DNA of 56,134 bases from the IMG/VR virus record IMGVR_UViG_3300042923_000318, positions 1 through 56,134 of that record; one strand, 5' to 3'. Position 1 is the first letter of the stretch. The number at the start of each line of letters is the position of its first letter. The DNA comes from a virus. Its lineage: Duplodnaviria > Caudoviricetes. The notes under the pieces are model-generated. The model searched no databases. It was not told the DNA's origin and worked only from the letters and a program-made list of their open reading frames with translations. The position numbers and the translations under genes were made by a program. Shown here piece by piece: positions 25,601 to 54,375 of the stretch.

Positions 25601-26464
25601 ATGAGCGATTTAGTAAAAGCAAATAGCCAAAATAATGTTAAAAGCTTACTAGCAAATGTAGGTTACAAGAAAAGATTTGAAGAAATACTTGGCAAGAAAG
25701 CTGCAGGTTTTATGAGTTCTTTGATTAATCTTACAAACTCTGACGTTAACCTTTCAAAAGCTGATGCAAACAGCGTAATAGCATCCGCAGTAGTTGCAGC
25801 AACATTGGATTTACCTGTTGACAAAAATCTCGGATTCGCGTGGATATTGCCTTATGGTACTAGAGCACAGTTCCAATTAGGCTATAAAGGCTATATACAG
25901 TTAGCTTTAAGAACAGGTCAATATAAAAATATCAACGTAATTGAGATTTACAAAGGTCAATTAATAGACTTTAATCCACTTACAGAAGAATTAAAACTTG
26001 ATTTTTCTAAGAAGGAAAGTAACGAAGTAATAGGGTATGCAGCTTACATTAAACTTGTTAATGGATTTGAGAAAACTGCATATAAGCCTAAAGAAGATGT
26101 AACAGCTCATGCTAAAAGATTTTCTAAAACTTTTAACAATGGTCCATGGAAAACTGATTTTGACGCAATGGCTAAAAAAACAGTGTTAAAAAATACTTTA
26201 AGTAAGTGGGGAATACTTAGTATAGAAATGCAAACAGCAATTCAAGCGGATCAAGCAGTTATTAAAAACGAGGTTGCAGAGGGCGCAGAAGTAAGCGCAG
26301 AAACCATTGAATACGCTGACGGAATTAAAGATGCTGATTACACTCCAGTTACCACTGAACCAGTAAAAACCAAACTAGATGATAAGTTTAAAAAAGCAGA
26401 GGAATCAGAAAAGCAAAGCGAAAATATCTACGAAGGGACACCTTTTGACGAGGGGGAAAATTAA
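25601..26464 (+). CDS. recT: RecT-family single-strand annealing recombinase
   Basis: AATLDLP..LGFAWILPY..AQFQLGYKGYIQLALRTGQY..DFDAMAKKTV. Confidence 0.92.
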   Translation: MSDLVKANSQNNVKSLLANVGYKKRFEEILGKKAAGFMSSLINLTNSDVNLSKADANSVIASAVVAATLDLPVDKNLGFAWILPYGTRAQFQLGYKGYIQLALRTGQYKNINVIEIYKGQLIDFNPLTEELKLDFSKKESNEVIGYAAYIKLVNGFEKTAYKPKEDVTAHAKRFSKTFNNGPWKTDFDAMAKKTVLKNTLSKWGILSIEMQTAIQADQAVIKNEVAEGAEVSAETIEYADGIKDADYTPVTTEPVKTKLDDKFKKAEESEKQSENIYEGTPFDEGEN

Positions 26465-27255
26465 TGAGTGAACTTTTAAAACTCACGGATGATAATTACT
26501 TTAGTCTTGAAATGGAAAATGAATATATGGGCGTTTCTCAATTTAAAGCTTTTAGAGAATGTGAAGCTAAGAAAATGGCAGAACTTAAAGGATTGTGGAA
26601 GGATAAAGAAAGTACCGCATTATTAGTCGGTTCATATGTTCACTCACACTTTGAAGGTGCTATTGATAAATTTAAGCAAGAAAACCCTGCGATATTTACA
26701 AATAAAGGTGAACTTAGAGCAGATTACAAAGAAGCGAATGAAATGATTAACTGCTTAGAAAGTGACGAATCATTCCAACAAATTTACACTGGAGAAGTAG
26801 AGCAAATATTTACTGCTGAATTATTTGGCGCAAAGTGGAAAATAAAAGTAGATTGCTTAAACCTTGCAGAAAGTTATTTTGTAGATTTAAAGACCACTAG
26901 AGGTTTTGAAAGACAATGGGCAGAGATAGACGGTAAAAATGTAAAAGTAACATTTGTTGAGGCTTGGGGTTATTTAATCCAGGTAGGCGTATATAAAAAA
27001 ATATTAGAACTTGCAACGGGAAATAAAGATTTAGAAGCTTTCATAATAGCAGTAACCAAGCAATCCCCACCCGACAAGATGGTGCTGCGATTTAATCCAG
27101 AAGACTACGAAATTGGCTTAAAGGTTGCAGAGGACAATATTGCACACATTCTAGATGTTAAAAGTGGTAAGGTGACGCCAGTCCGATGTGAGAAATGCGA
27201 CTATTGCAGAGCTACTAAGAAGCTGGATAGAGCTTATCACTATTCAGAATTATAA
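26464..27255 (+). CDS. PD-(D/E)XK exonuclease (RecE/DUF3799-like)
   Basis: YMGVSQFK..ALLVGSYVH..KIKVD..VDLKT..Y.IQ..Y..CEKCDYC. Confidence 0.85.
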   Translation: MSELLKLTDDNYFSLEMENEYMGVSQFKAFRECEAKKMAELKGLWKDKESTALLVGSYVHSHFEGAIDKFKQENPAIFTNKGELRADYKEANEMINCLESDESFQQIYTGEVEQIFTAELFGAKWKIKVDCLNLAESYFVDLKTTRGFERQWAEIDGKNVKVTFVEAWGYLIQVGVYKKILELATGNKDLEAFIIAVTKQSPPDKMVLRFNPEDYEIGLKVAEDNIAHILDVKSGKVTPVRCEKCDYCRATKKLDRAYHYSEL

Positions 27256-38485: not shown

Positions 38486-38490
38486 AATTT

Positions 38491-39533: not shown

Positions 39534-39534
39534 G

Positions 39535-39942: not shown

Positions 39943-40088
39943 TCAAACACTTCCTTTCCATTGTATTATATACGTATAATAAAGGCGTGTCAATGTTTAA
40001 AGGTGTACGTAATAAGTTAATAAATATGTACGATATTGGTTGAATGTTAACAAATATTATGATACAATAATATTACGGAGGTGAACAA

Positions 40089-40798: not shown

Positions 40799-40808
40799 GT
40801 GAAACGAA

Positions 40809-41504: not shown

Positions 41505-41519
41505 AGTAGAGGTGTAAAG

Positions 41520-41762
41520 ATGACTGTAGATATTAAAAGAATGTATGAAGTTAAAACAAAAGAAAAGAAAGTTGTTGTATCAGAAGATGATATATTGAAC
41601 TTTCTTTATACTGACAGAGATATAAAGAGAAGTGTTGTAGGAAGATTACTTGGATATAACGACGGTTATTTTAAATTAGACACAAGTCTAAATTATAGAA
41701 AAAGTGAAGAAAAAATATTTTACTTAAATATTACTGATATCAATATTATTGAAAAGAATTGA
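41520..41762 (+). CDS. Hypothetical protein
   Basis: AGAGGTG RBS. Confidence 0.55.
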   Translation: MTVDIKRMYEVKTKEKKVVVSEDDILNFLYTDRDIKRSVVGRLLGYNDGYFKLDTSLNYRKSEEKIFYLNITDINIIEKN

Positions 41763-41946
41763 GGAGGAATATGCGGAATGGATGATTATAAAATACTATG
41801 TTCTACCAAAAGAACTGAATACTATATATCTAAAAACGGTATGCTTGCAAGAAAAACTAAAAACACATTTAAGGAACTTGGGTATATAGAAGATAATATG
41901 AGCTTATATAAAAAGCTATGCGAATCAATTTAGAGGAGTTGATAAA

Positions 41947-42228
41947 GTGGATGATATAAAAGAACTTCCTAGTAAATACGATTTAAAAGACTTTATACCA
42001 GTAAGATTAAACGAAGCTATTATTGCAAGAGGTTACGCCAGGAACGAAGTAGCAGAGGCGGCAGAGATAACAACAAAGCAGCTATGTGACATTTTGATGC
42101 AGGGCAAAGGTATAACGTTGGCTTTAGTAATAGAGTTTTCAACTATACTTGATTTTCCAGTTAGATATTTCTTTAAACCTTTGCCGCCGCGTTCGATATA
42201 CGTTGATAGCATAACGTTTGATTTATAA
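41947..42228 (+). CDS. Xre-like HTH protein
   Basis: FIPVRL.EA..ARG....VAE..I..ILDFP.RYFFK. Confidence 0.65.
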   Translation: MDDIKELPSKYDLKDFIPVRLNEAIIARGYARNEVAEAAEITTKQLCDILMQGKGITLALVIEFSTILDFPVRYFFKPLPPRSIYVDSITFDL

Positions 42229-42588
42229 AATGGAGGTTAACAGATGAATAAAAAAGATTTCTTTTGTATACTATTAGCGATTGCTATAACGATGATGATA
42301 TTTATTATGAGCAACTTTGGTTTTATCGGTTGGCTTATAATATTATCCTGGGTATTTGGGTTTATTTATATAATTTATGAGCAAAGTTTAGGAGGGGAAG
42401 AATGAATATTTTAGCTATTTTTGTAATCATGCTCTATGCAATGACAGGTGTTTGTATATCAATTAAGCTGTTTAAAAAGCCAATAGGGAAAATCATAATG
42501 TCATTTTACTTTGCTATATTTTGGCTGCCACAAGCATTATCAACATATGTTGTTAGAAAATTAGATTTATAGTGTACTAAACATAAAT

Positions 42589-42616
42589 TTATCGAAATTC
42601 GCTAAGATAGCGACTA
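42589..42616 (+). repeat. 28-bp cassette-boundary site (TTATCGAAATT CGCTAA GATAGCGACTA)
   Basis: Matches the family; directly before RBS of 42630..43181; partner site not evident. Confidence 0.45.
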
Positions 42617-42629
42617 AAGGAGAAGTGTT

Positions 42630-43181
42630 ATGAAAACATTAGCTTATTGCTTTTCGTGCAATTTAGAGCATGATATAACTGAAATTGGAGCAAAACAGAA
42701 AGGAGTTAAATGCGAGTGTGGAGGTTATATTATATCTCCGTCTGGAAAAATAAACATGAAGTTAATTCCAGAGAACAATGAAGATGAAAAACTATTAGGA
42801 TTTACAACACTAGAAGCTAAAAAAGATGAAATTTTCCCTAAAGTGTTTAAAATGGATGATTGTTCATGGGTTTGCGCTATGGACGCAGAAAAAGCCGTTG
42901 ATTGGTACATTGAAACTACTGGATTAGATGAAGACGATTTGCAAGTAAAAGAATGCGATATAGATAAAGATACAATGTATTCAGAAACGACAATTTCTGA
43001 AATAATAGAACAACTTGAAAACATGAGCAATCACGACGAAACAAGTCTTTTAATAACAAGAAGAGGTGGGGAATTATTTGTAAAAGAATCTTTTAGAACA
43101 GTTATTAATTGCATGATTAACAGCTATGGTATTGAGTCAGTTGTAAAAGAGCCTTTTGAAATATGTTCTACTGAATGGTAA
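42630..43181 (+). CDS. Hypothetical protein with N-terminal zinc ribbon
   Basis: CFSC..CECGG; ends ICSTEW. Confidence 0.6.
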   Translation: MKTLAYCFSCNLEHDITEIGAKQKGVKCECGGYIISPSGKINMKLIPENNEDEKLLGFTTLEAKKDEIFPKVFKMDDCSWVCAMDAEKAVDWYIETTGLDEDDLQVKECDIDKDTMYSETTISEIIEQLENMSNHDETSLLITRRGGELFVKESFRTVINCMINSYGIESVVKEPFEICSTEW

Positions 43182-43192
43182 GAGGTGGATTA

Positions 43193-43369
43193 ATGCCGAC
43201 CGAGGATTATAAAGAAGCATCTTACACTATAGAGATAGATTGGAAAGGTGGCACAGTATGGCTTAACAATCATATCTCTAAAGAAAAACTGGTTATTTCA
43301 GAAAGGGATGCAGAATATATAAGCGATTGTTTTAAAAGTATTGAAGCTAAGAAAAATGGTGAATGGTAA
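43193..43369 (+). CDS. Hypothetical protein
   Basis: ATG after AGAGGTG. Confidence 0.5.
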   Translation: MPTEDYKEASYTIEIDWKGGTVWLNNHISKEKLVISERDAEYISDCFKSIEAKKNGEW

Positions 43370-43633
43370 TCATCAACTTGAGAAAAAACTATAAAAGCGC
43401 AAACCCTGCAAACCCTGTATAATTAGCGTATATAGGGTTTTATTCTTTGATAAGGAAGTGGGATTTATGGATTTATTTAAACAAAGAAATGCATTTAAAG
43501 CAACATCATATGATCATAACGCTTCAAATGTTGTAACGTTAAGGAATAGATCAAGTTTATCAAAAATGTTAAATAGATATTCAAGAAGGAAACTGAAACA
43601 AGAACTGAAATTTGAAGTAAAGGAAGTGAGTTA

Positions 43634-44932
43634 ATGAACTTTAAGAATATATTTGAGTTGAAAGCTTTAGAGAAAAAACAAAATGTTATTTTAACCAAAA
43701 TAGTTGAGCTGAACGGTGGTAAGTCGGCACAATATATAAAGTCTAATTATGAATCTATAGCAAAAGAGGGGTATTCGGGTAATTATATAATAGGCAGATG
43801 CATAAATGAAATTGTAAGAGCTGCAGTGCAATTAGATTGGAAAGTCATGAGGTACAATAAAGATAATAAGCCAGAGGAAATTCCAAATCATCCAGCAGTG
43901 CAGATTATGGAGAAACCTAATCCAACAACAACAGAGGCAGAATTAGTAAAAAGAGCAATCATCTATTATTATCTTGCTGGTGATGCTCCTTTTGTAAAAA
44001 TAACAGCAGGAAATAGGGTAAAGGAATTATATGTACATAACCCCAGGAAAATAAGCGTTGAGCTTACTGGGAATGTAGAGGAACCTTATCAAGGCATAAG
44101 ATATAATGGACAGATTCAGAAAGATATAGAATCTAAGAATTTTACATTATGGAAAAACTTTGACCCTTTATGTGCTTTTGATGGATTAGGGAGAGGGATT
44201 TCGCCTTTGGAACCCATATTAAAAAACGGTGATCTTTTGAATTTATATCTTGAGTGGGGTAATTCTTTATTAAACAACGGTGGCAGCTTAAGTGGAATAG
44301 TAGCAATAGAGGAAACATTACAAGACCCCGAATATGAAAGAGCAAAAGCAGAACTTAAAAATGAACATCAAGGAGCTGGAAACGTAGGTAAATTTTTATT
44401 ACTGGAAGGTGGAGCAAAGTATTATTCAACTGGTAGCAATCCACGCGATATGCAGTGGGTGGAGGGTAAAAACAGTACAGCAGTCGACATAATGGTAGGT
44501 ATAGGAGTTGATCCTCTCATACTTGGGTTTAACGAGCATAGCAGCTATAATAATAAAAACGAAGCATATAAAGCGCTGTATACTAATTTAGTTATTCCAC
44601 TAATGAGAAGTTTAGCGGATGAACTTGGACCATTCTTAGGATTATTAGAAAACGAATATCTAGATATAGACTATAGTAAAATACCATGTCTCCAGGAGGA
44701 TATAAAAGAGTTAACCGACAGATTACAGAAAGCAGATGACCTAACCATTAACGAAAAAAGGCAAGCCAGAGGACTGGACCCATTGCCTGGCGGCGACATA
44801 ATCGTAAACAATAACTTTATACTCAAAGACGGCAAATTGTATAAGCCAGTTAGTTTACAAGATATTGACATAGATAGCGAACCCCAGGACGAAAACTTAC
44901 TACAAGATGATGCAAAATCTTTAATATATTGA
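43634..44932 (+). CDS. Portal protein (HK97 family)
   Basis: HP...MEKPNP, GRGISPL, GAGNVGKFLLLEGG, LTINEKR..GLDPLPGGD. Confidence 0.95.
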   Translation: MNFKNIFELKALEKKQNVILTKIVELNGGKSAQYIKSNYESIAKEGYSGNYIIGRCINEIVRAAVQLDWKVMRYNKDNKPEEIPNHPAVQIMEKPNPTTTEAELVKRAIIYYYLAGDAPFVKITAGNRVKELYVHNPRKISVELTGNVEEPYQGIRYNGQIQKDIESKNFTLWKNFDPLCAFDGLGRGISPLEPILKNGDLLNLYLEWGNSLLNNGGSLSGIVAIEETLQDPEYERAKAELKNEHQGAGNVGKFLLLEGGAKYYSTGSNPRDMQWVEGKNSTAVDIMVGIGVDPLILGFNEHSSYNNKNEAYKALYTNLVIPLMRSLADELGPFLGLLENEYLDIDYSKIPCLQEDIKELTDRLQKADDLTINEKRQARGLDPLPGGDIIVNNNFILKDGKLYKPVSLQDIDIDSEPQDENLLQDDAKSLIY

Positions 44933-44936
44933 GTAG

Positions 44937-45752
44937 GTGGTCAAAGTGGCTGCTAAAAAATCAGATAAAGTATTACTGAAAACATATGACAGCATTATAC
45001 GCCCTTTAGAGCGGTTATTTGAGAGGGTAACACTAAAGGTGCTAAGACAGCAAAATAAACGCATGGCGAACGCATTAAGGCGGTTCATGAGCGAGAAAAA
45101 AGAGGATAACAATATAACCGAAGAAGAAGCGGAAAAACAAGCTGAAAAAATAGCAAGTAACTTTTACGACTTTGATAAAGATGTTACAGTTATTTTAAGT
45201 ATATTGATACCAATTTATTTACAAGCTGGAGAACTGGGAAATGTGCAATTTAACACTATACAATTCGGAATACAAGCTACAGCGGATAAAGGTGTATTAT
45301 TTGCAATAATAAGGGACGACTATTTAACTTGGCTCCAAGAATACGGCGGCAATAAGATAGTTCAGATAAATGAAACTACTAAAGAAATTACTAAGCGAAT
45401 AATCAAAGAGGGTTTATTGAATGGTGATGGCGTAGAGGCTATAGCAAAGAATTTAAGCGATAAGATAGAGGAATATTCTTTATTTAGAGCTAGAAGAATT
45501 GCACTTACTGAAATGCACAACAGTTACATGAGAGGTAATTTTATAAGCGCGGAGGCAAGCGGATTTAAATATAAGAAGTGGATAAGTTCGAAAGATAGCC
45601 ATGTACGTTCTTCACATCAACAATTGAACGGGAAAATAGTTAAGATAAATGAGGACTTTAAGCCTAATCTTGGATATCCTGGAGACTCAAGAGGAATTGC
45701 AAAGGAAGTTATAAATTGCAGATGCATTTTAACTTATACAGATAAAAAATAG
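44937..45752 (+). CDS. Head morphogenesis protein (SPP1 gp7/Mu gpF family)
   Basis: RARRIALTE..KKWISSKD.HVR.SH..YPGD..EVINCRC. Confidence 0.9.
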   Translation: MVKVAAKKSDKVLLKTYDSIIRPLERLFERVTLKVLRQQNKRMANALRRFMSEKKEDNNITEEEAEKQAEKIASNFYDFDKDVTVILSILIPIYLQAGELGNVQFNTIQFGIQATADKGVLFAIIRDDYLTWLQEYGGNKIVQINETTKEITKRIIKEGLLNGDGVEAIAKNLSDKIEEYSLFRARRIALTEMHNSYMRGNFISAEASGFKYKKWISSKDSHVRSSHQQLNGKIVKINEDFKPNLGYPGDSRGIAKEVINCRCILTYTDKK

Positions 45753-45833
45753 TAGCAGTATTAATTTACTGCTTTTTTACGCCCTTTTTCTATATGCGGT
45801 ATAATTAAAATATAGCATAAAGGAGTTGATAGA

Positions 45834-48800
45834 ATGGCACAACCATATGAATTTACACTTGATTATAAGATATTCAAAGGTTATCCAGTGATGATATATA
45901 CCAAAGGTGATGCAGAGGCTACACCGATGATCATAACCTTAACCGATAGAAATATAGCAGAAAATTTAACTAATAAATACGTAACGGTAACCATAAAACG
46001 ACCCGACAATCAATCGTTTGTTTATATTGCAAATATTGTAGCTCAAAATAAAATAAGCTTTACGCCTAATCTACAAGCTTTAAATACACAGGGCATAGTC
46101 TTAGCTAACATACAAGTCTATGAGGGCAATATAAGGGTTTCAACGACTAGATTCCAATATCTTGTAGCAGGTGAATTGATAAATGGCGAACTTGTGGAAG
46201 ATGACAGTAATTTTCCAGTGCTGACTAATTTAATTGATGACGTAAATAAGGCTAAAGAGGGCATTGGAGTTATAGGAAGTTTAAGCGAGGATTTAACTGA
46301 AAAGATAGAAGAAGCCGAAACAATTGATGGAACTTTAGCAAGCAGGATTTCAACTGGTAATACTCTTAAAAATAGCTTGGATGCTGACATTGCAACAGGA
46401 AGCACATTGCATACTAATTTAAACGCAGATATAGCTGCAGCTAATACCGCAAAATCTAATCTAGACGGAAGTATTACAACAGCAGGAACAACAAAAAGCG
46501 AGCTTGATGCAAGCAATACAACTGCTAATACTACTAAAACCGCACTGGAAAATACTATAAGTGATGCAGATACAGCAAAAGAAGATTTGCAAATTGTTAT
46601 TGCTACAGCGGATACTACTACTTATGCCACTAAGGGAGAGATAAATGATGTTAATTCGCAATTGGCAGAAAAGGCGAATCAATCTTATACCGACAACCAA
46701 TTAGCATTAAAAAGAGATAAATCTGTACCAATGGAGTTAGAGGATTTCTCTGCCACTGTGTTAGGAGCGATTGATGGAACGGGAGGCCCCTTCAATTTAT
46801 TGTCCATACCTCAAGACAGCTCTGTAACTCCCGAAAAAACCACTTATTTAACAGTTGGGAGAAATAAATTTAATAAGTACAGAATGTTATTAGGTAACTT
46901 GATAAATACAACAGGCGGACTTACTGTTAGTTCTGGTTATGCTACAACACTAGACTATATTCCAGTAAAAGCTGGCGAGGTTTGGACATTTAAACGGGTA
47001 AGATATATTGCCTTTTATGATAGTGATAAAGTTTTTATAAATAGGATAGATAGAGCCGGATCTTCAGCAGAAAACACAGAAACCATTGCAAATGATGGTT
47101 TTGTTAGAATAACAACATACAACGGAACAAGTTCAAATTTTTGGATTGAATTAGCATATATGGCAAAAGAGAATTCTTATTCAGGATATGAATCATATAA
47201 AATGGGTTCCGCAAGTTTAGAAGTTGATAATTCAAATTTAAAAAATTCAAATATAAATGCTGAAAAGTTAGCTGGTGATATACCGGCTGAAAAAGTTTCT
47301 TTCGTGTTAATAGGTATAAATAAAACTAACAAGATAAAGCACTCTTTGGGATACATTGTGTCTGAAACAGATGGAAACATTACAGTCAATGCTTCGTATA
47401 ATACTACGGAATATATTCCGGTAAAAGCAGGAATAACCTATGTGGCTAATTACCCAAGAAAGATTGCTTTATATGACAATAATAAACTTTTTCTTAGTGG
47501 TATAGACGTCCCAATTATAATTGCTACGACATTTACTCCCAGTGTAGACGGATTTGTTCGAATAGCTTACAGTAGTTCAAGAAGTGATTTTCAAATCGAA
47601 ATTGGTTCTACACCAACCAGTTATGTACCATATAGTTATGTAATGGACAATTTAGAATTTAACAACGATCAAAAACAAAAAATTAAAGAATTTATTGCAT
47701 TAAAAATATATAAAGTTGGAAATCTGTATAAAATAAGAAGTGTTTTTGATGATGTTAACGACATGGTTATTGAAGTTTCTTCTAATGGCTCATTAAATGG
47801 TTCGTTTAGATTCGAAAGAAGTTATTTAATCCCCGTAAGTTCAGAAAATTTTAGTAACATAGAAGTCTTTCATCCAAACAGTCAAGATGATATTACACCA
47901 ATTAGAACATTTTATACGGTTGGAGCCAATCACGGATATGCATCACTTCAAATTAATGCTACGGGTTATACCAGTGCGGACTTAGGAAGCACATGGACAG
48001 ACGGATCAACGATATTCACCATGGTAAAAACAACCAGTACTTATGTTCAATTTGTATCAGAATATATCGTTGATGGTAATGGAATAGTTAGCGCAAAATC
48101 AATAGTTCCAATTGCTAATTTAACCCACGTTAGTGGAGCAACAAACACAACAGCTATTCCAATTTCAGGATATACAACACCAAATTTGTTTCCATCAATC
48201 AATAATAAAAGTGTTAAATTTGTGTTGGATGGTAAAGAAATTATAGCAGATGGTACTTATTATGGAATAGACCTGCAAGTACAAGAGTCTTATAACGTTA
48301 TGGACTATAAATCACTTATTGATTATGCACAGTCTCATATTGGAACAAGCTATGAGAACAACAGCGTTGAAGGCGTTGTGAGGCTATCTATTAATTATAA
48401 TTTTAAAGAAAAGGGTTCAGTATTGATTAATCACAATATTAGAATTTTGAAAAAAGTATCAATGGGAGACTGTGGTTTTGTGCAATATTTTCCAATTGGT
48501 CTGAGTGGACATATTTTGACTAGATACTTACCTAACTCATTAACCAATGGTGGATATAATTTTAAAAACATAGTTGATATGACAAGTTATTCGTCAAATT
48601 TAATTTTTACATCGGCTTACTATGAGAACTCAAACATTCCACCTCATAGAAATATAGATTGGGCGGTCAATTCTTCAACATCGGTTAAAAAAGTTGGATT
48701 TGCTTTTGGATATTTGCCTGATAAATCAAGTGGTAAACATGCACAACGATTAATAAATACTCCCAGAGCTTGGGACATGAGGGGTACAAAAAAATCTTAT

Positions 48801-49118
48801 CCTATTGCGTTAACAGGTTTAACTTTAGAACCTGGGCAGTATTTTAACTTTACTGCATACAGAAATTATCTATCGCCTAATTGGAAACCAAATGCTACAG
48901 ATTTCTATATCGTGCAGGACAAGAAAGATGTGTATGTGTTTATTGACTATCATCAAAGTGTATCTTTTGAAAATATAAAATTGGACAATTATATTGGAAA
49001 ATCAATATCTGTAGTAGAAAGCGAAAACTTTACAATTGTGAATGATATTGTGGATGCAGATGGAGTTATTTTCACCATAGCCAATGGATATGGATATGCA
49101 ATTTTGAAGTTAAGTTAA
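45834..49118 (+). CDS. Large BppU-type virion appendage/adhesin (N-terminal anchor, coiled-coil stalk, variable beta-rich C-terminus)
   Basis: N-terminal KRPDN..GIV.ANIQVY..F.Y.V (DUF2479/BppU-like); Ala/Thr heptads; two GxNK.NK..TT.YIPVKAG..YD repeats. Confidence 0.7.
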   Translation: MAQPYEFTLDYKIFKGYPVMIYTKGDAEATPMIITLTDRNIAENLTNKYVTVTIKRPDNQSFVYIANIVAQNKISFTPNLQALNTQGIVLANIQVYEGNIRVSTTRFQYLVAGELINGELVEDDSNFPVLTNLIDDVNKAKEGIGVIGSLSEDLTEKIEEAETIDGTLASRISTGNTLKNSLDADIATGSTLHTNLNADIAAANTAKSNLDGSITTAGTTKSELDASNTTANTTKTALENTISDADTAKEDLQIVIATADTTTYATKGEINDVNSQLAEKANQSYTDNQLALKRDKSVPMELEDFSATVLGAIDGTGGPFNLLSIPQDSSVTPEKTTYLTVGRNKFNKYRMLLGNLINTTGGLTVSSGYATTLDYIPVKAGEVWTFKRVRYIAFYDSDKVFINRIDRAGSSAENTETIANDGFVRITTYNGTSSNFWIELAYMAKENSYSGYESYKMGSASLEVDNSNLKNSNINAEKLAGDIPAEKVSFVLIGINKTNKIKHSLGYIVSETDGNITVNASYNTTEYIPVKAGITYVANYPRKIALYDNNKLFLSGIDVPIIIATTFTPSVDGFVRIAYSSSRSDFQIEIGSTPTSYVPYSYVMDNLEFNNDQKQKIKEFIALKIYKVGNLYKIRSVFDDVNDMVIEVSSNGSLNGSFRFERSYLIPVSSENFSNIEVFHPNSQDDITPIRTFYTVGANHGYASLQINATGYTSADLGSTWTDGSTIFTMVKTTSTYVQFVSEYIVDGNGIVSAKSIVPIANLTHVSGATNTTAIPISGYTTPNLFPSINNKSVKFVLDGKEIIADGTYYGIDLQVQESYNVMDYKSLIDYAQSHIGTSYENNSVEGVVRLSINYNFKEKGSVLINHNIRILKKVSMGDCGFVQYFPIGLSGHILTRYLPNSLTNGGYNFKNIVDMTSYSSNLIFTSAYYENSNIPPHRNIDWAVNSSTSVKKVGFAFGYLPDKSSGKHAQRLINTPRAWDMRGTKKSYPIALTGLTLEPGQYFNFTAYRNYLSPNWKPNATDFYIVQDKKDVYVFIDYHQSVSFENIKLDNYIGKSISVVESENFTIVNDIVDADGVIFTIANGYGYAILKLS
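46653..46680 (+). repeat. 28-bp cassette-boundary site inside coding sequence (AATTCGCAATT GGCAGA AAAGGCGAATC; encodes NSQLAEKAN)
   Basis: Left arm 10/11 identical to the 49809 site; right arm 10/11 identical to the 50723 site. Confidence 0.7.
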
Positions 49119-49255
49119 TTAGTCTTAGGAGGAAAATTATGATACCGTTAAAAAATATATTATCGAAAAATAAAAGTATTAAAATCGATGATTTAATTAA
49201 AGATGAGTACAAAAAACTTTGCTCTGACAATAATCTTAACAAAACAAGAAAGTAA

Positions 49256-49284
49256 GAAGGGTTTTTCTGTGTTTTGACGAATAT
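49256..49284 (+). promoter_or_regulatory. SigH-like promoter
   Basis: GAAGGGTTT-11 bp-GACGAATAT fits RNAGGAWWW-N11/12-RNNGAATWW with one mismatch. Confidence 0.55.
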
Positions 49285-49308
49285 CCCCAATAAGGGGAGT
49301 GATGAAAA

Positions 49309-49803
49309 ATGGCAAGAATTATAGGTTCAATAGATAGCGTAGCACCCAAAGTGCCATCAGAGATTTTAACAAAAATTCAAATGGTGGCTACATATAAGCT
49401 AACCAACAGAGAAGCAACGTTGTTTACGTACGCATTGGAAGCCATAAATAGTCAATTAAAACATGACAATAAATTATATAAAGAATTGAGAAATGTGGTT
49501 ATAATTTTCACTAAAGACGGCTCATATTGCGTTCAAGATGATTACTCGATGGGTAGTCTTGGGACTTACGCTGTATTTAGTATTCAAGCGTGGAGGGATA
49601 AGGAATGGTCTGAACTTAATATTATAACAGTCTTTGTTGAAGAATTATGTCATCATTTTTGGGGTATAAAAGACGAGGAAGAAGTAAAGTATAAAGTTTT
49701 AGAAGTCATCAATAGAATTTTTAAACAAAAATTACAGTTTGAAGATATTTTTCTACCCACATGGAAAGAGGGTTATCCGCATATTTATGGGAATCAAAAA
49801 TAA
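49309..49803 (+). CDS. Moron; zincin-like hypothetical protein
   Basis: EELCHH..DEEEV variant metal-binding motif; own promoter and terminator. Confidence 0.6.
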   Translation: MARIIGSIDSVAPKVPSEILTKIQMVATYKLTNREATLFTYALEAINSQLKHDNKLYKELRNVVIIFTKDGSYCVQDDYSMGSLGTYAVFSIQAWRDKEWSELNIITVFVEELCHHFWGIKDEEEVKYKVLEVINRIFKQKLQFEDIFLPTWKEGYPHIYGNQK

Positions 49804-49808
49804 AAGGT

Positions 49809-49836
49809 AATTCGCAATAGGAAAAAATTACGAACT
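49809..49836 (+). repeat. 28-bp cassette-boundary site (AATTCGCAATA GGAAAA AATTACGAACT)
   Basis: Dyad TTCGCAAT/ATTACGAA; 5 bp after the stop of 49309..49803, before the terminator. Confidence 0.7.
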
Positions 49837-49949
49837 TAAGAGAGCTAACCCCTCTCTTTTTTATTTACAAACATGTCCGATTTAACTTTACAAGTAAACC
49901 TATATAGGATATAATGTAATTAAGTAATAAAGTACAGAGGTGAATTGAT

Positions 49950-50339
49950 ATGAGATTATGGCATGAAGATTTAATTCCTAAATTACCAAGACAACAATTA
50001 TTAGGGCAACATAGAGAGTGTTGTGCGTTGCGCGGTAATGGTTGGAGCAAGAAACACGCTACAGTAAACTATGTATTCAGTCACAAGCTTGAGTTTCTTG
50101 TTGCGTATCACTTGAAAGTTATAGAAGAAATGCAGTTAAGAGGCTATAACGCATCTGCTGAATGGCTTGATTACAATTATCGAGGTAAAGCGTGTGGCAA
50201 GGCAAAATTAGATCTAAGCAGCATTGATAGAATCAAAAACCTTAAACCGATTTATCGAGAACACGACAACAATTATTTGCTTGAATGTATAGAAAATTTA
50301 AAAAGTAAAGGGATAGAATTAGAGGAGGAGAGGAAATGA
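49950..50339 (+). CDS. TIGR02328-family (pyrimidine dimer DNA glycosylase-like) protein
   Basis: MRLWHEDLIPKLPRQQLLGQHRECCALRGNGW.KKHATVNYVF..IY.EH..YL.EC..NL..KGI. Confidence 0.9.
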   Translation: MRLWHEDLIPKLPRQQLLGQHRECCALRGNGWSKKHATVNYVFSHKLEFLVAYHLKVIEEMQLRGYNASAEWLDYNYRGKACGKAKLDLSSIDRIKNLKPIYREHDNNYLLECIENLKSKGIELEEERK

Positions 50340-50719
50340 ATATTAAATTTATAGCTTGGGATATTCAAGATTCAATTATGCTTAAAGGAAGTTCGGTGGT
50401 AATTGGAAGTAATGACGATGCTTATTTTTTAGATGGTGACGGAGAATGGAAAGATTGTGGAGACAGAGTGAAATTAATGCTTTATAGTGGGATAACAGAT
50501 AAAAACAAAGAGGAAATTTACACTGATTTTATAGTTAAACGAACTTCTATGACTCCAGGGGGGATTGATTTTGTTGGCTTGGTTACTTTTGCAGAGGGTA
50601 GATTCTGGATTGATAACGGGCAACAGGCAGTACCGCTATTTAGCGAAGCTGACGAGCTGGATATACTGGGGCATAGGTACGAGGAATCAGAGAAGGTTGA
50701 GAAGTGGCTGGGGTTATAA
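50336..50719 (+). CDS. YopX-family protein
   Basis: IKF.AWD..LM.YSGITDKN..EIY..IV..ILGHRYE. Confidence 0.85.
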   Translation: MNIKFIAWDIQDSIMLKGSSVVIGSNDDAYFLDGDGEWKDCGDRVKLMLYSGITDKNKEEIYTDFIVKRTSMTPGGIDFVGLVTFAEGRFWIDNGQQAVPLFSEADELDILGHRYEESEKVEKWLGL

Positions 50720-50722
50720 TTT

Positions 50723-50750
50723 ATTACTGAATTTGAAATAAAGGCGAATT
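50723..50750 (+). repeat. 28-bp cassette-boundary site (ATTACTGAATT TGAAAT AAAGGCGAATT)
   Basis: Between YopX stop and RBS of 50768..50980. Confidence 0.6.
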
Positions 50751-50767
50751 ATTGAAAGGGTGATTAT

Positions 50768-50980
50768 ATGAATGGTTTAACTCAAATAAAAGATAAAGAT
50801 GGAATTCTATATGATGTTCAATATGATTTAGATTTTGAAAGATTTCTTATATTTGAACATGATAGAGAAAATGTTAAAGGTAATTATTTTACGAGTAAAG
50901 ATATACAAAGGTTCTTAGAAACTAAGCAAATAATAATTGTTAATGATGGCGACAAAGTGTTTGAAAAGTATTTGAATTAG
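50768..50980 (+). CDS. Hypothetical protein (cassette between two 28-bp sites)
   Basis: 70 aa; flanked by sites at 50723 and 50979. Confidence 0.65.
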   Translation: MNGLTQIKDKDGILYDVQYDLDFERFLIFEHDRENVKGNYFTSKDIQRFLETKQIIIVNDGDKVFEKYLN

Positions 50981-51006
50981 TTCGTAATTCAAGAAATTTG
51001 AGAATT
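50979..51006 (+). repeat. 28-bp cassette-boundary site (AGTTCGTAATT CAAGAA ATTTGAGAATT)
   Basis: Begins at the 2nd base of the TAG stop; spacer identical to the 10594 site. Confidence 0.6.
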
Positions 51007-51038
51007 AACAACTTACCAAAATATGTTATAATTACATC

Positions 51039-51158
51039 AAGTGGGAGAAGATATTTGCAACATCTTCATACACCGTGCCTCCGAGCGGTTCCCACTTATA
51101 TAAAAATATCGGAGAAACATTTTTCGGAGGATTACCAATATCGGTAGTCCTTTTATTT
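51039..51158 (+). ncRNA. Candidate C4/CI-like three-way-junction RNA with CCUCCGA loop, two downstream targets and terminator
   Basis: TGTTATAAT at 51024; stems AAGTGGGA/TCCCACTT, GAAGAT/ATCTTC, ACCG/CGGT; TCGGAG at 51109 and TCGGAGG at 51124; terminator 51129-51158. Confidence 0.65.
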
Positions 51159-51186
51159 TAAGACTTTTAAAGAGTCTTTTTTATTT

Positions 51187-51240
51187 TGTACGATATTTAT
51201 TTACTTAACTATTGCATAATGTACGTTATTACTTTATAAT
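51187..51240 (+). promoter_or_regulatory. Promoter with two TGTACG operator copies
   Basis: TGTACGATATT at 51187; TTGCAT-17 bp-TATAAT with TGTACGTTATTACTT in the spacer (51220). Confidence 0.7.
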
Positions 51241-51269
51241 GTAAGTATAAACATTAAAGAGGTGGTAAA

Positions 51270-51422
51270 TTGGCTAACAAAGAGACAAAACCAAGATTTG
51301 TCGCTGATTGCGATTCAGAACTAAAAAAGGAAATAAAAACTTTCTGCGTTAAGAAAGGAATAGATTTAAAAGATTTTGTTATTTCAGCAATACTTGAGAA
51401 ATATGAAAAAGAAAAAGATTAA
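51270..51422 (+). CDS. Ribbon-helix-helix regulator, 50 aa (not in ORF track)
   Basis: AGAGGTGG RBS, TTG start; RFVADCDSELKKEIKTFCVKKGIDLKDFVISAILEK. Confidence 0.7.
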   Translation: MANKETKPRFVADCDSELKKEIKTFCVKKGIDLKDFVISAILEKYEKEKD

Positions 51423-51533
51423 TATATGAGGAGGTGGAAACCATGGTAGGGAAAATAGTGTGCGACGTATTCCCATACCACAGCTTTAGGCAAAAAATAA
51501 GATTAACAAAAGAATTAAAGCATAAGGGCAGAA

Positions 51534-51869
51534 TTGAGGTGTTTAATAATGCCTTTATCCTCTGTTACTATTATACCAAAAATTCCAATAATAAAAATTA
51601 ACGGCATGGTGAAAAAAATTATAGATTATGAAGATTACGAAGATGATGAAATTGAATATTCCCAAGAAGAGGAAAGCCAAGTAATTGGAGAATTGCAAAT
51701 AGGATTAATGCTAAATGAGATTGAAATTTGTACAAGCAAGAAAAAGCTCAAAGCATGGTTTGCTAATATCCAAATGAAAAAGACCAAAAATAATATTGAT
51801 TATTGCCCAAACATTAGCGGTCAAGATTTAATTCAAATAGCGAAGGAGCAGGGGTTTAAAATATTATGA
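51534..51869 (+). CDS. Hypothetical protein (true start probably ~51607-51610)
   Basis: Acidic segment followed by globular C-terminus. Confidence 0.4.
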   Translation: MRCLIMPLSSVTIIPKIPIIKINGMVKKIIDYEDYEDDEIEYSQEEESQVIGELQIGLMLNEIEICTSKKKLKAWFANIQMKKTKNNIDYCPNISGQDLIQIAKEQGFKIL

Positions 51870-52229
51870 TGGATGCAGAGAAAAGAAAAAGAGAAGCTTT
51901 ATTCATGTATAACATGTTAAGAAGAAGAAAAATTAATAAACAAAAGAAAATTGATAGGGATAACATAGGAATTGTTGTGGATTATTTAGAAAAGGGCAGG
52001 AGGAGAGGGCATAATCAAAATAGGATTTATGGAGCTTATTAAGAGTAAGGGGTGATGAAATGAAGATTCTTTATATATTTATAGCAATTCATTTTTTAGC
52101 TGAATTTATAGCAAATATAAGAAAAGACAAAACAATGACGGATATAATTAGTTCTGTAATTTTCTTTCTAGTTGAATGTTGTTTTATGGTAAATATCATT
52201 AATTATATTTTTAAATAAGGAGAAATAAA

Positions 52230-52481
52230 ATGAGAAGATTTTTTGGAATGATGCCTAGCGCAGAAATTGAAATAGAAAAACAATATAAGGATAAAAACGG
52301 ATATAGAATAACAATTCAATCTGGTCAGCATGGTTGGACTGTTATTTACACAGATTCATCAACAGAATATAAAGATATAGATTGCACAACGGATGAAAAC
52401 TTTAAAGCTGCTTATAATTTAGCAACAAGTAGATTAGGGGAACTAACTGAAATACAAGATTTAAGGAGTAATTCTTTATGA
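52230..52481 (+). CDS. Hypothetical phage protein
   Basis: AAGGAG RBS. Confidence 0.6.
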   Translation: MRRFFGMMPSAEIEIEKQYKDKNGYRITIQSGQHGWTVIYTDSSTEYKDIDCTTDENFKAAYNLATSRLGELTEIQDLRSNSL

Positions 52482-52885
52482 ATATACAAGAATTTGCAAA
52501 TAAATTAAACGGTCGAGAGTATGGCTTTGAAATAACAAAAGAGGAAGAAAAAGAAGCAGAATACTTAGGATATGTTGTAGTATTCGGATATTCTGATGAC
52601 AATATTGAGTTTAGAGGAGCTATTAATGACGAGATTGGTTGTTATGGTGCTAAAAGAGTATATTTAGATAAAAACGGAATAATTGAAAAATGCGAATGTC
52701 ATTGTAAATACTGGGGAAAAGCAAAAGAAAATGCTAAAACAATAAAAGCCGTATCAAATGATGATGATTGCTTTGAATTTTATTGGCACTACGAAACAGA
52801 TATTCCTCATGCTACATTTGAAATTTACGAAAATGGAGAGGATTATTGTAAAGGAATAGTTTTTGATATAAAAGAATTAAGTTAA
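52478..52885 (+). CDS. Conserved hypothetical phage protein
   Basis: LNGREY..VVFGYSDD..EFRGAI.DE..TDIPHATFEIYE.GE.YCKGIVF. Confidence 0.7.
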   Translation: MNIQEFANKLNGREYGFEITKEEEKEAEYLGYVVVFGYSDDNIEFRGAINDEIGCYGAKRVYLDKNGIIEKCECHCKYWGKAKENAKTIKAVSNDDDCFEFYWHYETDIPHATFEIYENGEDYCKGIVFDIKELS

Positions 52886-52939
52886 AAGATAAAAATGAAT
52901 TGTTAGAGCTAATAAAGAGAATGTGAAAGAAGGTAAAAA

Positions 52940-53197
52940 ATGAAAGAAAGTATGGCAATATTAGTAACAAATATATATGAAAATATGAATAATATTTTTA
53001 AAGAAGATGACTATATTGAGCCGGCAACAATAAATGCAAACGAAATAGATGAAAACTTTTTTACTGCTGAACTATTAGCATTAAAATTGCAATTTGAACG
53101 TTTAACCCAGCAATCTTTAGATTTAATTGAATTTACACACTTACTAAATAAATTAGCTGTACAATATTTACTAGAGAATAATGCACAATTTGAATAA
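52940..53197 (+). CDS. Hypothetical protein
   Basis: RBS; ends in a partial 28-bp site (53180) encoding NAQFE. Confidence 0.6.
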   Translation: MKESMAILVTNIYENMNNIFKEDDYIEPATINANEIDENFFTAELLALKLQFERLTQQSLDLIEFTHLLNKLAVQYLLENNAQFE

Positions 53198-53334
53198 AAG
53201 TAATATGCAATAAAATAGATATAAAGCATAAACCACGTTTAACTACGTGGTTTTGTTCGTTATAAGCTAATATTTTAAAAGTATGTTATAGTATTATTAG
53301 TTAATCTATATCTTACAAGAAAGGAGGAAACTTC

Positions 53335-54375
53335 TTGAATTTGGAATTTAAAAACTGGCAATTTGAAATAAAAGAAATTAATGAAAAAGGTATTTTTAAA
53401 GGAGTTGCTAGTCCTTACAATAACGTTGATCTTGGCAATGATAGAGTTTTATCAACTATATCCAAAAGGAATAAAAATAAAACCGTTCCTTATCTTTGGT
53501 GCCATGACACAAAAGAGCCTGTTGGAGAGGTTAAATTAATGCCTACTGACAACAGTATGGATTTTGAAGGAAAGCTTTATTTAGATACAAATGAGCAAGG
53601 CGTACTATTAATTCCTAATGCTCATAAAGCTTATGTATTAATGAAAAACGGGCAGGTTAAAAATAGCATTGGATACAAGACTTTAGATTATGAATATGTA
53701 AAAGAAGGCAATAACACTATAAGAAATTTAAAAGATATAGATATTATGGAAGTATCCGCTGTAATATTTCCCATGAATCCTAAAGCGGATATAACTGATG
53801 TAAAACAGGAGGGAGGTAACAAAGTGGAAGTTGAAGAAAAGGCAATGGGTTTTGCGGACTTATTAAAAGTCCAAAATGCAAACGAATTAAGGTGGAAACT
53901 TCAAGATGCTTTAAATGCTAGTTTTCGAGCATTGATGGAAGATGACACAATGACAATAGAACAAAAAATTACTCAACTTGGCGCAAATGTAGACGAGTTT
54001 GCAACAGCTTACAAAGAAAATATGAATTTACTTCTTCAAGCAAGTGCTAAAAACAAAGTAGCTAAAAAAGAGGTATTTGACATAATGGAAAAGAAAGAAG
54101 CTGCGGAACTTGAAACAAAATCAGGAAAAAAGATTAGCAAACTAAGTATGGAAAAAATTAAATCAGCCATCTCTGCTTTATCTGGATTGATTGACAATGT
54201 AGAAATAGAAGAAGAGGACGACAAAGGTTGCAGCACTAAGCCAGGAATGAAAGAAAGTACGGTAGTGGCTGAAACTAAGCAAGAACCGAACGAAAATGAT
54301 ATAATAGAGTTAAAGAGTGAGGAACTCGATGAAATCAGTAAATTATATAAAACAATAAAGGGAGGTAACAAATAG
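53335..54375 (+). CDS. HK97-family prohead protease with C-terminal scaffold-like extension
   Basis: FKGVAS.YNNVDLGND..LWCHD..PVG..SIGY..EVSAV.FPMN. Confidence 0.9.
   Translation: MNLEFKNWQFEIKEINEKGIFKGVASPYNNVDLGNDRVLSTISKRNKNKTVPYLWCHDTKEPVGEVKLMPTDNSMDFEGKLYLDTNEQGVLLIPNAHKAYVLMKNGQVKNSIGYKTLDYEYVKEGNNTIRNLKDIDIMEVSAVIFPMNPKADITDVKQEGGNKVEVEEKAMGFADLLKVQNANELRWKLQDALNASFRALMEDDTMTIEQKITQLGANVDEFATAYKENMNLLLQASAKNKVAKKEVFDIMEKKEAAELETKSGKKISKLSMEKIKSAISALSGLIDNVEIEEEDDKGCSTKPGMKESTVVAETKQEPNENDIIELKSEELDEISKLYKTIKGGNK

What the first reader, a model, noticed from the sequence alone, without database searches (positions are those of the whole stretch)
46653..49836. The same site lies in frame inside the 1094-aa adhesin (NSQLAEKAN), making its C-terminal ~810 aa plus a moron a swappable cassette
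Seen: the site at 46653 encodes residues 274-282, exactly where the BppU-like anchor and coiled-coil stalk end and the beta-rich region begins. Its left arm matches the intergenic site at 49809 (AATTCGCAAT) and its right arm matches the site at 50723 (AAAGGCGAAT). The 3.2-kb segment between 46653 and 49809 carries the adhesin C-terminus, a 38-codon ORF and the 164-aa moron, and the terminator lies just outside. A weaker, 1-bp-longer match sits at the adhesin stop (~49117). Inference: the peptide is conserved because the DNA site is conserved, and recombination there would fuse new receptor-binding modules in frame, giving host-range switching without an invertase or DGR. From unverified recollection, (S/T/A)QLA(D/E)-type peptides recur at module junctions in Firmicute phage tail proteins, which would make this widespread.
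Basis: partly seen in the sequence, partly recalled or inferred. Interest (0 to 1): 0.8.

Follow-up and report, generated by a model that had tools for sequence, protein, structure and literature searches.

The report
Repeat-flanked swappable phage fibre cassette
A 27-base sequence at the end of a soil phage's fibre stalk, repeated in decayed form just after the fibre's variable end, marks the seams at which related phages have exchanged their host-binding modules.

Summary
Site A (46653-46679) encodes residues 274-282 of the 1094-aa fibre protein. Sites B (49809, 20/27) and C (50723, 19/27) are the two best matches to A in the window. New evidence places all three at real seams. A 13.7-kb contig from another soil metagenome matches the window up to 46671, carries 1329 other bases in place of 3143, and resumes at 49815. 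It breaks again at 50737. A 720-aa database protein is 90% identical over residues 1-283 and unrelated afterwards. Two unrelated phages (no capsid match) share DNA with this 6.2-kb region only at site A or the block ending there. Each also carries a decayed copy of the motif between its fibre stop codon and a terminator. Rare codons in the motif recur across relatives. Best reading: the variable fibre end, with accessory genes, is bracketed by a coding and a non-coding copy of one short sequence. Homologous recombination there, probably by the phage's RecT/exonuclease pair, swaps cassettes in frame. Not shown: that the peptide is conserved because of the DNA, or that any dedicated recombinase exists. 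The sample is small (three phages with DNA plus one contig). I rate it a new variant of known recombination-linker and gene-remnant architectures.

The parts
45776..45805 (+). promoter-like site ahead of the fibre gene, just after the terminator-like hairpin 45754-45773
   Evidence: 10 of 12 consensus positions; a consensus match only
45834..49118 (+). 1094-aa fibre gene (P0001), made of N-terminal anchor, helical stalk and variable C-part
   Evidence: it lies between the portal/MuF genes and the prohead protease/capsid genes
45834..46671 (+). constant part (anchor plus stalk), shared with the X2 contig and with P0002
   Evidence: 254/283 identical; record 10 aligns to 46034-46671
46574..46679 (+). 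conserved stalk-end block, the only DNA in window 45000-51200 that also occurs in the unrelated phages G403 and G402
   Evidence: G403: window 46574-46678 at 76-77%; G402: window 46650-46681 at 91%; for the protein block
46653..46679 (+). site A, the coding copy of the motif (residues 274-282)
46672..49814 (+). cassette 1 (fibre C-part, 38-codon ORF, 164-aa ORF), replaced by 1329 other bases in the X2 contig
   Evidence: table 5 (joint 46671 to 49815)
49117..49143 (+). weak motif-like stretch at the fibre stop codon, overlapping the ribosome-binding site of the 38-codon ORF
   Evidence: 18/27 to G403's coding copy; not above background on its own
49139..49255 (+). 38-codon ORF with a strong ribosome-binding site
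   Evidence: no family match
49309..49803 (+). 164-aa ORF of unknown function (phrog_33355), part of cassette 1
49809..49835 (+). site B, a non-coding decayed copy of the motif between the last stop codon and the terminator
   Evidence: the only position in 112,216 with at least 20/27 to A
49838..49858 (+). terminator-like hairpin that closes the fibre transcription unit
49887..49915 (+). promoter-like site that opens the next unit (Pyr_excise 49950-50339, YopX 50336-50719)
50723..50749 (+). site C, a non-coding motif-like copy after the YopX stop codon and the left seam of a second replaced segment
   Evidence: joint 50737 to 50977; best match in the whole window to G403's post-stop copy, 20/27
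50738..50976 (+). second replaced segment (70-aa ORF 50768-50980 with its ribosome-binding site); the X2 contig has 216 other bases here
25601..27255 (+). RecT-family annealing protein and PD-(D/E)XK exonuclease, the candidate enzymes for exchange at short homologies
   Evidence: RecT 1.5e-47; DUF3799/PDDEXK 9.3e-79

Best explanation
The variable end of this fibre locus is a cassette bracketed by two copies of one short sequence. Copy A is coding and forms the last turns of the stalk. Copy B is non-coding and decayed, and sits between the last stop codon of the cassette and the terminator. B is most simply a leftover of the 3' end of a stalk-only form of the gene (motif, stop codon, terminator), into which C-terminal modules were recombined. 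Two conserved flanks therefore exist: the stalk-end block ending in A, and B plus the terminator. Because phages that are otherwise unrelated share these flanks, homologous recombination at short and imperfect homology exchanges everything between them. The phage's own RecT/exonuclease pair is the likely enzyme. The reading frame is preserved because the left crossover lies inside a conserved peptide. Site C marks a further seam of the same kind behind the next gene pair. Shown: the sites, their positions at natural homology breakpoints, and the recurrence of a B-type copy in two unrelated phages. Inferred: that B originated as a gene remnant, which enzymes act, and that recombination between A and B could delete or circularise the cassette.
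For: (1) Natural swap. X2 record 10 (13,672 bases, depth 28.4) aligns to window 46034-46671. It then carries 1329 other bases in place of 3143, resumes at 49815-49975 and 50249-50737, and carries 216 other bases in place of 239. P0002 is 254/283 identical over residues 1-283 and then unrelated. By my arithmetic, 1329 bases fit the rest of P0002, its stop codon and about 4 more bases. (2) No protein more than 56% identical to the 164-aa ORF was found among 10 relatives, and none lies on a contig of 52,129 bases, the contig size listed for P0002. (3) Unrelated phages. The window's capsid protein has no match in G402 or G403. When window 45000-51200 is searched as DNA against them, it matches only at 46574-46678 (G403) and 46650-46681 (G402, 91% over 32 bases). 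(4) In G402 the fibre stop codon is overlapped by a copy that is 20/27 identical to that phage's own coding copy. The next best match in the 5.5-kb locus is 16/27, and a terminator follows. (5) In G403 the fibre stop is followed at once by a copy and then a terminator. That copy is the only hit in the 35-kb genome to a pattern drawn from window sites A and B. The same pattern hits only A and B in the window, against 0.11 expected, and 0 of 100 shuffles gave 2 or more. The best match to the G403 copy in the whole window is site C (20/27), and site B (18/27) is in the top four. (6) Four different C-terminal parts follow the motif: the window's own, P0002's, a polysaccharide deacetylase domain in G403, and a different one in G402. 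(7) Codons. The motif uses TCG (5.6% of Ser codons), TTG (13% of Leu), AAG (27% of Lys) and GCG (10% of Ala). TTG is used at the motif's Leu in 5 of 5 sequences that have Leu there, although TTG is only 10-22% of Leu codons in those genes. Neighbouring codons do not explain this. G403 shares 5 of 5 codons and G402 shares 7 of 8 at shared residues (hand count). (8) RecT and an exonuclease are encoded at 25601-27255. Passages of PMC3945230 state that Rad52-like recombinases recombine short diverged sequences and give a minimal pairing segment of 23-27 bp for Red-beta.
Against: Only one natural variant contig is available, and its sequence could not be read. Its breakpoints come from an aligner run at 80% likeness. 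Among 13 X2 breakpoints only 3 carry the site. A test on all breakpoint pairs gives 2 of 76 pairs sharing 10 or more bases, against a null mean of 0.315 and P(2 or more) = 0.04, which is suggestive and not decisive. In G403 the coding and post-stop copies are only 16/27 alike, and 53 other positions in that genome match as well. More distant relatives have no copy of their own motif after the stop: Bacillus phage vB_BhaS-171 and a Terribacillus prophage. The right end of the second replaced segment (50977) shows no convincing site. The 7-base half-site is not enriched in the window, with 5 hits against 7.0 expected. Codon agreement is weaker in more distant relatives (L016 2 of 5, L046 3 of 5). 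The pattern used was written after I had seen the G403 copy, although its letters come from window A and B alone. P0101, the one protein that ends right after the motif, may be a truncated metagenomic prediction.
Confidence: 0.6

Rival explanations
1. Chance plus selection. Mosaic seams arise by illegitimate recombination anywhere, and only those at gene or domain borders survive. On this view the likeness of B and C to A is coincidence in A+T-rich DNA.
For: 10.2% of all 27-mers in the window have both end 10-mers recurring. Many chance repeat families of similar quality exist. The breakpoint test gives only P = 0.04. Ten of 13 X2 breakpoints lack the site. B and C lie in short intergenic gaps, where seams are expected anyway.
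Against: A-B at 20/27 is unique among 112,216 window positions. The same arrangement recurs right after the fibre stop in G402 (20/27) and in G403 (the only hit in that genome to the pattern drawn from window sites A and B). The G403 copy finds site C as its best match in the window. DNA likeness to two unrelated phages is confined to site A or the block ending at it.
Confidence: 0.12
2. A dedicated site-specific system. The 27-bp site, with two 7-base half-sites in inverted orientation 13 bases apart, is bound by a recombinase that integrates and excises circular cassettes, as an integron does.
For: A has a 6-base inverted repeat with a 14-base spacer, a pattern found once in the window against 0.02 expected. 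B keeps the left half-site and C keeps the right one. The breakpoints in A (after base 19 of the site) and in B (before base 7) are compatible with one crossover region at bases 7-19 (my reading). Sites A, the one at 49117, B and C could delimit an array of cassettes.
Against: Pfam scans of 73 ORFs found no recombinase gene in or beside the cassettes. The only site-specific recombinase is a large serine integrase at 22584-24188, next to the repressor gene. The B-type copies are decayed and differ between phages, with half-sites not preserved in G402 or G403. The half-site is not enriched. No circle or deletion junction was seen in the contigs, but contigs cannot show rare forms.
Confidence: 0.12
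3. The copies are cis-acting elements unrelated to recombination. The rare-codon cluster in A would slow translation at the stalk end to aid folding or trimerisation. B and C would be 3'-UTR or regulator-binding elements ahead of terminators or start sites.
For: Four less-used codons fall within the ten codons from the Val before the motif to its last Asn, at a predicted domain transition, and they recur in relatives. B-type copies always lie between a stop codon and a terminator.
Against: This does not explain why a non-coding element should resemble the coding motif of the same phage (20/27 in two phages). It does not explain why DNA homology with three relatives ends exactly there. No promoter-like site was called at A.
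Confidence: 0.1

Closest known systems
Conserved-motif recombination in T-even distal tail-fibre and adhesin genes (His boxes in gp37; glycine-rich motifs in gp38)
   Same: Short conserved motifs inside the fibre or adhesin reading frame separate variable segments, and exchange between motifs swaps specificity in frame. I read the abstract of Trojet et al. 2011, PMC3157838. For Tetart et al. 1998 I saw only the title in that paper's reference list and did not read the paper.
   Different: Here one motif copy is coding and its partner is a decayed non-coding copy after the stop codon. The unit exchanged therefore includes the whole C-part, downstream genes and ends at a terminator. The phages have Firmicute-type (BppU_N) fibres.
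PeSL regulatory cassettes of T4-type phages (Arbiol et al. 2010, PMC2839356; abstract read)
   Same: Repeated short elements in hyperplastic regions bound small gene cassettes. Differences between close relatives map to them. Recombination between neighbouring copies can release mini-circles.
   Different: PeSLs are a promoter plus a stem-loop. Here the repeated unit is neither the promoter nor the hairpin, and one copy lies inside a structural gene. Mini-circles were not tested here.
Short conserved boundary sequences at module junctions of lambdoid phages, and relaxed homologous recombination by Rad52-like recombinases
   Same: Both propose homologous exchange at short conserved sequences as a source of mosaicism. 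I read passages in PMC3029335, which cites the original proposals that I did not read, and passages in PMC3945230. This phage encodes RecT and an exonuclease.
   Different: Those boundary sequences are intergenic. [quoted passage not shown] Here the left boundary is a coding peptide motif with conserved synonymous sites.
Gene-remnant scars around prophage cargo, such as tfaD-ybcY-tfaX in E. coli DLP12
   Same: A cassette is bracketed by direct repeats made of the 3' end of a tail-fibre-related gene plus its terminator, read as a scar of recombination within that conserved end. This comes from earlier AI notes of this scan, which I did not check.
   Different: Those repeats are 150-215 bp and flank an unrelated cargo gene. 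Here the repeat is about 27 bp, the first copy is an in-frame domain junction, and what lies between includes the receptor-binding part itself.
Mu G segment with Gin, and related invertible tail-fibre segments
   Same: A recombination site lies at the border between the constant and variable parts of a tail-fibre gene, and the variable part travels with an accessory gene. I read passages in PMC4406740. That the site lies inside the S reading frame is recalled, not read.
   Different: That system has 34-bp inverted repeats and an adjacent invertase gene, and it switches between two resident alternatives. Here the repeats are direct, no invertase lies nearby, and exchange is between genomes.

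Membership tests
BppU-family phage baseplate upper protein (Pfam PF10651 BppU_N) | N-terminal domain matches BppU_N above the gathering score (23.1 bits) | tested here: inconclusive
   P0001 has no BppU_N hit at E up to 0.1. Its 90%-identical relative P0002 scores 22.9 bits, just below the cut-off. Fibre proteins that share its stalk-end block (G402 29.1 bits, G403 30.6 bits) or its C-part (P0036 77 bits) pass.
BppU-family phage baseplate upper protein (Pfam PF10651 BppU_N) | gene lies in the tail or baseplate module | tested here: not met
   The gene lies between portal/MuF and prohead protease/capsid. The baseplate genes (Baseplate_J at 17016-18176 and others) lie about 28 kb away. In G403 the homologous gene does follow tail genes.
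Recombination-linker motifs in tail-fibre genes (T-even type) | a conserved in-frame motif separates a constant part from variable parts in many relatives | tested here: met
   Alignments of 29 of 144 relatives to residues 1-300 end at residues 280-289 and are followed by unrelated sequence. See also P0002.
Recombination-linker motifs in tail-fibre genes (T-even type) | natural recombinants have their junction in the motif | tested here: met
   X2 record 10 breaks at 46671, inside site A. DNA likeness to G403 ends at 46678 and to G402 at 46681.
Recombination-linker motifs in tail-fibre genes (T-even type) | exchange at the motif shown experimentally to change host range | not testable with these tools
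   The phage is uncultured and its host is unknown.
PeSL-type regulatory cassettes | the repeated element is itself a promoter plus a terminator stem-loop | tested here: not met
   Sites A, B and C are not among the promoter-like or terminator-like calls. B lies 3 bases before a hairpin, and a promoter-like site follows 29 bases after that hairpin.
Invertible tail-fibre segments and shufflons (Gin, Cin, Rci) | inverted repeats and an adjacent site-specific recombinase gene | tested here: not met
   A, B and C are direct repeats on the + strand. The only site-specific recombinase found in 73 scanned ORFs is a large serine recombinase at 22584-24188, 22 kb away.
Gene-remnant recombination scar | the distal repeat is a recognisable leftover of a gene's 3' end followed by that gene's terminator | tested here: inconclusive
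   Read in the motif's register, B keeps the first three residues of the motif and then meets a stop codon. The G403 copy keeps four of nine motif residues and then meets a stop (my reading). One database protein (P0101, 314 aa) ends one residue after the motif region, but it may be a truncated prediction.

The most novel reading that the evidence does not exclude
Fibre loci of a group of Firmicute-type phages carry an integron-like cassette system. A 27-bp site with dyad symmetry, read in frame as the end of the stalk, would serve as an attachment site. Circular cassettes encoding receptor-binding domains and accessory genes would be inserted and excised there, building arrays (site A, the site at the fibre stop, B, C). 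The agent would be either an unrecognised recombinase or the RecT system acting on a sequence kept conserved for that purpose. Host range would then be reprogrammed by cassette capture, without an invertase or a diversity-generating retroelement.
Probability: 0.12. Interest if true: 0.9.

Novelty: new variant of a known kind. Interest (0 to 1): 0.66.

Why it matters
If the rule holds more widely, a short and recognisable sequence pair would mark the exact natural seams of receptor-binding modules in uncultured phages of Gram-positive hosts. The pair is a stalk-end motif and its decayed copy ahead of the terminator. This would let host-range modules be delimited from sequence alone. It would show which accessory genes travel with them. 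It would give a concrete, testable case for the long-debated idea that phage mosaicism uses short conserved linker sequences and not purely random joining. The conserved rare codons in the coding copy also offer a direct experiment: recoding the motif with synonymous codons would separate constraint on the protein from constraint on the DNA.

Tried and rejected
- Fetching the DNA of the P0002 or X2-type contig failed. The search for related loci in viral contigs and metagenome contigs confirmed no locus. A degenerate YopX pattern in viral contigs found nothing, not even the window itself. Records near the window are left out by the tools, so the seams in the variant could not be read base by base.
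- A degenerate DNA pattern for the exact peptide gave 7 loci in viral contigs. One was relevant (L002, from G402) and 6 were one unrelated protein. In metagenome contigs it gave 20 loci, none relevant.
- Anchor patterns on the block gave 4 loci, of which 2 were relevant and both came from the same G403 contig. Anchor patterns on the downstream linker gave 6 loci, of which L015 and L016 were relevant.
- Genome contigs gave 1 locus, from Terribacillus. Four of 401 genomes of that phylum had a match.
- Searches of the cultured-phage collection gave little. Megablast of 43600-51000 found nothing. Blastn of the site gave only chance-level hits with E of 4. Tblastn of the block found nothing. Blastn of B plus the terminator matched only the terminator part.
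- Staphylococcus phages that share the repeat domains have collagen-like repeats in place of the motif.
- An internal promoter at A is not supported, because no promoter-like site is called there. Codon context does not explain TTG. The half-site is not enriched.
- Run X3 held only short, low-depth fragments identical to the window. Run X1, possibly the source sample, showed no joint between A and B, but contigs cannot show rare forms.
The idea of an array of sites therefore rests on pairwise identities only.
- The search of earlier findings had no notes on this genome and no look-alike stretches.

Full report
**What the window is.** It is an IMG/VR virus record of 56,134 bases with 32% G+C. 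Pfam scans show a temperate myovirus-like phage.
- Tail genes: neck terminator, DUF3383 sheath-type protein, Baseplate_J and a sheath initiator.
- Lysogeny genes: a large serine recombinase (22584-24188, minus strand) next to a CI-type repressor.
- Recombination genes: RecT plus a PD-(D/E)XK exonuclease (25601-27255) and RecU.
- An Amidase_3 plus ChW endolysin, which suggests a clostridial-type host.
- The 1094-aa gene (45834-49118) is not in the tail module. It lies between portal/MuF and the prohead protease/capsid genes, inside its own promoter-like to terminator-like unit, 45776-45805 to 49838-49858.

**The observation.** Site A (46653-46679) encodes residues 274-282.
- Its left 10-mer recurs exactly only at 49809 and its right 10-mer only at 50740.
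- B (20/27) and C (19/27) are the two best ungapped matches to A in the window on either strand.
- In 200 order-2 Markov simulations, two or more hits at 19/27 or better occurred in 4%.
- 10.2% of all 27-mers in the window have both end 10-mers recurring, so the sequence alone is only suggestive.
- An AlphaFold2 model of residues 1-420 (mean pLDDT 60) places the motif in the last turns of a long helix at 153-293. Strands begin near residue 355.

**The motif is a module seam at the protein level.**
- P0002 (720 aa) is 254/283 identical over residues 1-283 and unrelated afterwards.
- A search of 1.84 billion representatives with residues 1-300 gave 346 hits at E up to 0.001, of which the best 150 were listed.
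- Of the 144 hits I re-aligned, 35 reach residue 276 or beyond, and 29 alignments end at residues 280-289.
- Many of these carry the block around ATADTTTYATKGEIN followed by variants of V-N-(S/T/A)-Q-L-(A/E/S)-(D/E), and then quite different C-terminal domains.
- The C-part is itself modular. Best alignments of 66 C-part relatives start at residues 325-343 in 22, at 451-522 in 24, at 586-623 in 5 and at 354-401 in 7. Only 8 run across the motif.

**A natural swap with seams in the predicted sites.** Three soil-metagenome runs hold parts of window 43600-53500. X1 holds 0.99 of the sampled words and may be the source sample.
- In X2, one contig (record 10; 13,672 bases; depth 28.4) aligns to 46034-46671 and then carries 1329 other bases in place of 3143.
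- It aligns again at 49815-49975, carries 282 bases in place of 273, and aligns at 50249-50737.
- It then carries 216 bases in place of 239 and continues from 50977.
- By my arithmetic, 1329 bases fit the remainder of P0002, its stop codon and about 4 more bases. That variant therefore has neither the 38-codon ORF nor the 164-aa ORF.
- Consistent with this, none of the 10 relatives of the 164-aa protein is more than 56% identical or lies on a contig of P0002's size.
- Caveats. This is one contig whose bases I could not see. Ten of the 13 X2 breakpoints lack the site. A test on all breakpoint pairs gives 2 of 76 pairs sharing 10 or more bases, with P(2 or more) = 0.04 against random positions.

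**Independent phages show the same architecture.** G402 (a provirus record of 36,220 bases) and G403 (34,991 bases with terminal repeats) have no match to the window's capsid protein.
- Window 45000-51200, searched as DNA against both whole records, matches only at 46574-46678 (G403, 76-77%) and at 46650-46681 (G402, 91% over 32 bases). The only shared DNA is therefore site A, or the block that ends at it.
- Both fibre proteins pass BppU_N. G403's C-part is a polysaccharide deacetylase domain and G402's is different again.
- In G402 the fibre stop codon is overlapped by a copy that is 20/27 identical to that phage's own coding copy. The next best match in the 5.5-kb locus is 16/27, and a terminator follows.
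- In G403 the stop codon is followed at once by a copy and then by a terminator whose stem begins like the window's.
- The G403 copy is the only hit in that genome to a pattern drawn from window sites A and B. In the window the same pattern hits only A and B, against 0.11 expected.
- The best match to the G403 copy in the whole window is site C (20/27), and B (18/27) is among the top four.
- Against this, G403's own coding and post-stop copies are only 16/27 alike. Two more distant relatives show no such copy.

**Is the DNA constrained, or only the peptide?** Upstream of the motif, the block shared with G403 has 6 of 17 identical codons at identical residues (hand count). That is saturation, so this part of the block is kept by selection on the protein.
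- Within the motif, G403 shares 5 of 5 codons and G402 shares 7 of 8.
- The motif uses TCG, TTG, AAG and GCG, which are 5.6%, 13%, 27% and 10% of their synonymous sets in 31 long ORFs of the window.
- TTG stands at the motif's Leu in 5 of 5 sequences that have Leu there, against 10-22% of Leu codons in those genes. Codon context does not explain this.
- More distant relatives agree less (2 of 5 and 3 of 5).
- The non-coding B-type copies remain 16-20/27 like the coding copies, even though neighbouring synonymous sites are saturated. I infer from this some constraint on them, or repeated exchange.
- This fits a sequence that is reused as a crossover point, but the sample is small.

**Mechanism.** The best-supported reading is a cassette bracketed by a coding copy and a non-coding copy of one short sequence.
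- The non-coding copy looks like a leftover of a stalk-only gene end. Read in the motif's register, B meets a stop codon after three motif residues, and the G403 copy meets one after nine codons. One database protein ends right after the motif, though it may be truncated.
- Exchange would run through homologous recombination in the two flanks.
- The phage's RecT/exonuclease pair is a plausible agent. Passages of PMC3945230 report that such recombinases act on short, diverged homologies and give a minimal pairing segment of 23-27 bp for Red-beta.
- A dedicated site-specific system is not excluded, but no recombinase gene lies nearby.

**Comparison with known systems.** The closest are the following.
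- Recombination at conserved motifs in T-even fibre and adhesin genes (abstract of PMC3157838; the title of Tetart et al. 1998 seen in its reference list).
- PeSL cassettes (abstract of PMC2839356).
- Short boundary sequences (passages of PMC3029335).
- The Mu G segment (passages of PMC4406740).
- Gene-remnant scars of the tfaD-ybcY-tfaX kind (AI notes, which I did not check).

Three full-text searches turned up no description of this arrangement, but none of them named it. One search used tail fiber, conserved motifs, recombination and adhesin specificity. One search used BppU, recombination, receptor binding protein, modular and conserved linker. One search used boundary sequences, lambdoid, mosaic, recombination and modules. 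What appears new is the pairing of an in-frame stalk-end motif with its decayed copy ahead of the terminator, seen in three unrelated phages. I rate it a new variant of a known kind.

Noticed in passing
window 45834-49118 relative to 43634-45752 and 53335-55488: A BppU-type fibre gene with its own promoter-like and terminator-like sites sits inside the head-gene block, between MuF and the prohead protease. A separate tail-fibre region follows the baseplate genes (19205-20631). The fibre could therefore be a head, neck or side fibre and not the primary adhesin.
   Followed up: partly
window 52887-53243: The 85-aa ORF (52940-53197) is absent from the X2 contig, which has 18 other bases there. 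The right seam lies in the loop of the terminator hairpin 53230-53253, so the two phages share only the 3' half of the hairpin. This is an exchange at a terminator, in the PeSL manner.
   Followed up: partly
window 49975-50249: Inside the pyrimidine-dimer glycosylase gene (49950-50339), 273 bases are replaced by 282 other bases in the X2 contig. This is an intragenic mosaic patch without the site.
   Followed up: no
window 37700-43600: A second hyperplastic stretch of small ORFs lies between the terminase (36156-37661) and the portal gene. It holds a HicB-like antitoxin gene on the minus strand, a T5orf172/MUG113 (GIY-YIG-like) domain protein and an HTH_36/DnaD_N protein.
   Followed up: no
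L046 (Bacillus phage vB_BhaS-171, KU160496.1), bases just after the stop of CDS 943-2757: The stop codon of this GDSL-lipase fibre gene and the next 5 bases together repeat the first 8 bases of the 11-base stretch shared by window copies A and B. A short inverted repeat follows. There is no copy of that phage's own motif, so this may be chance.
   Followed up: no
window 46576-46732: In run X1, loose ends at 46576 and 46732 and extra depth in the 46579-46909 bin suggest further contigs in the same sample that share only the stalk-end block. The table was cut, so this could not be confirmed.
   Followed up: no
window 11747-12304 and 28103-28372: The phage encodes a sigma-70-family factor (regions 2 and 4) and a SpoIIID-like regulator. 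This hints at its own late transcription programme and a spore-forming host.
   Followed up: no
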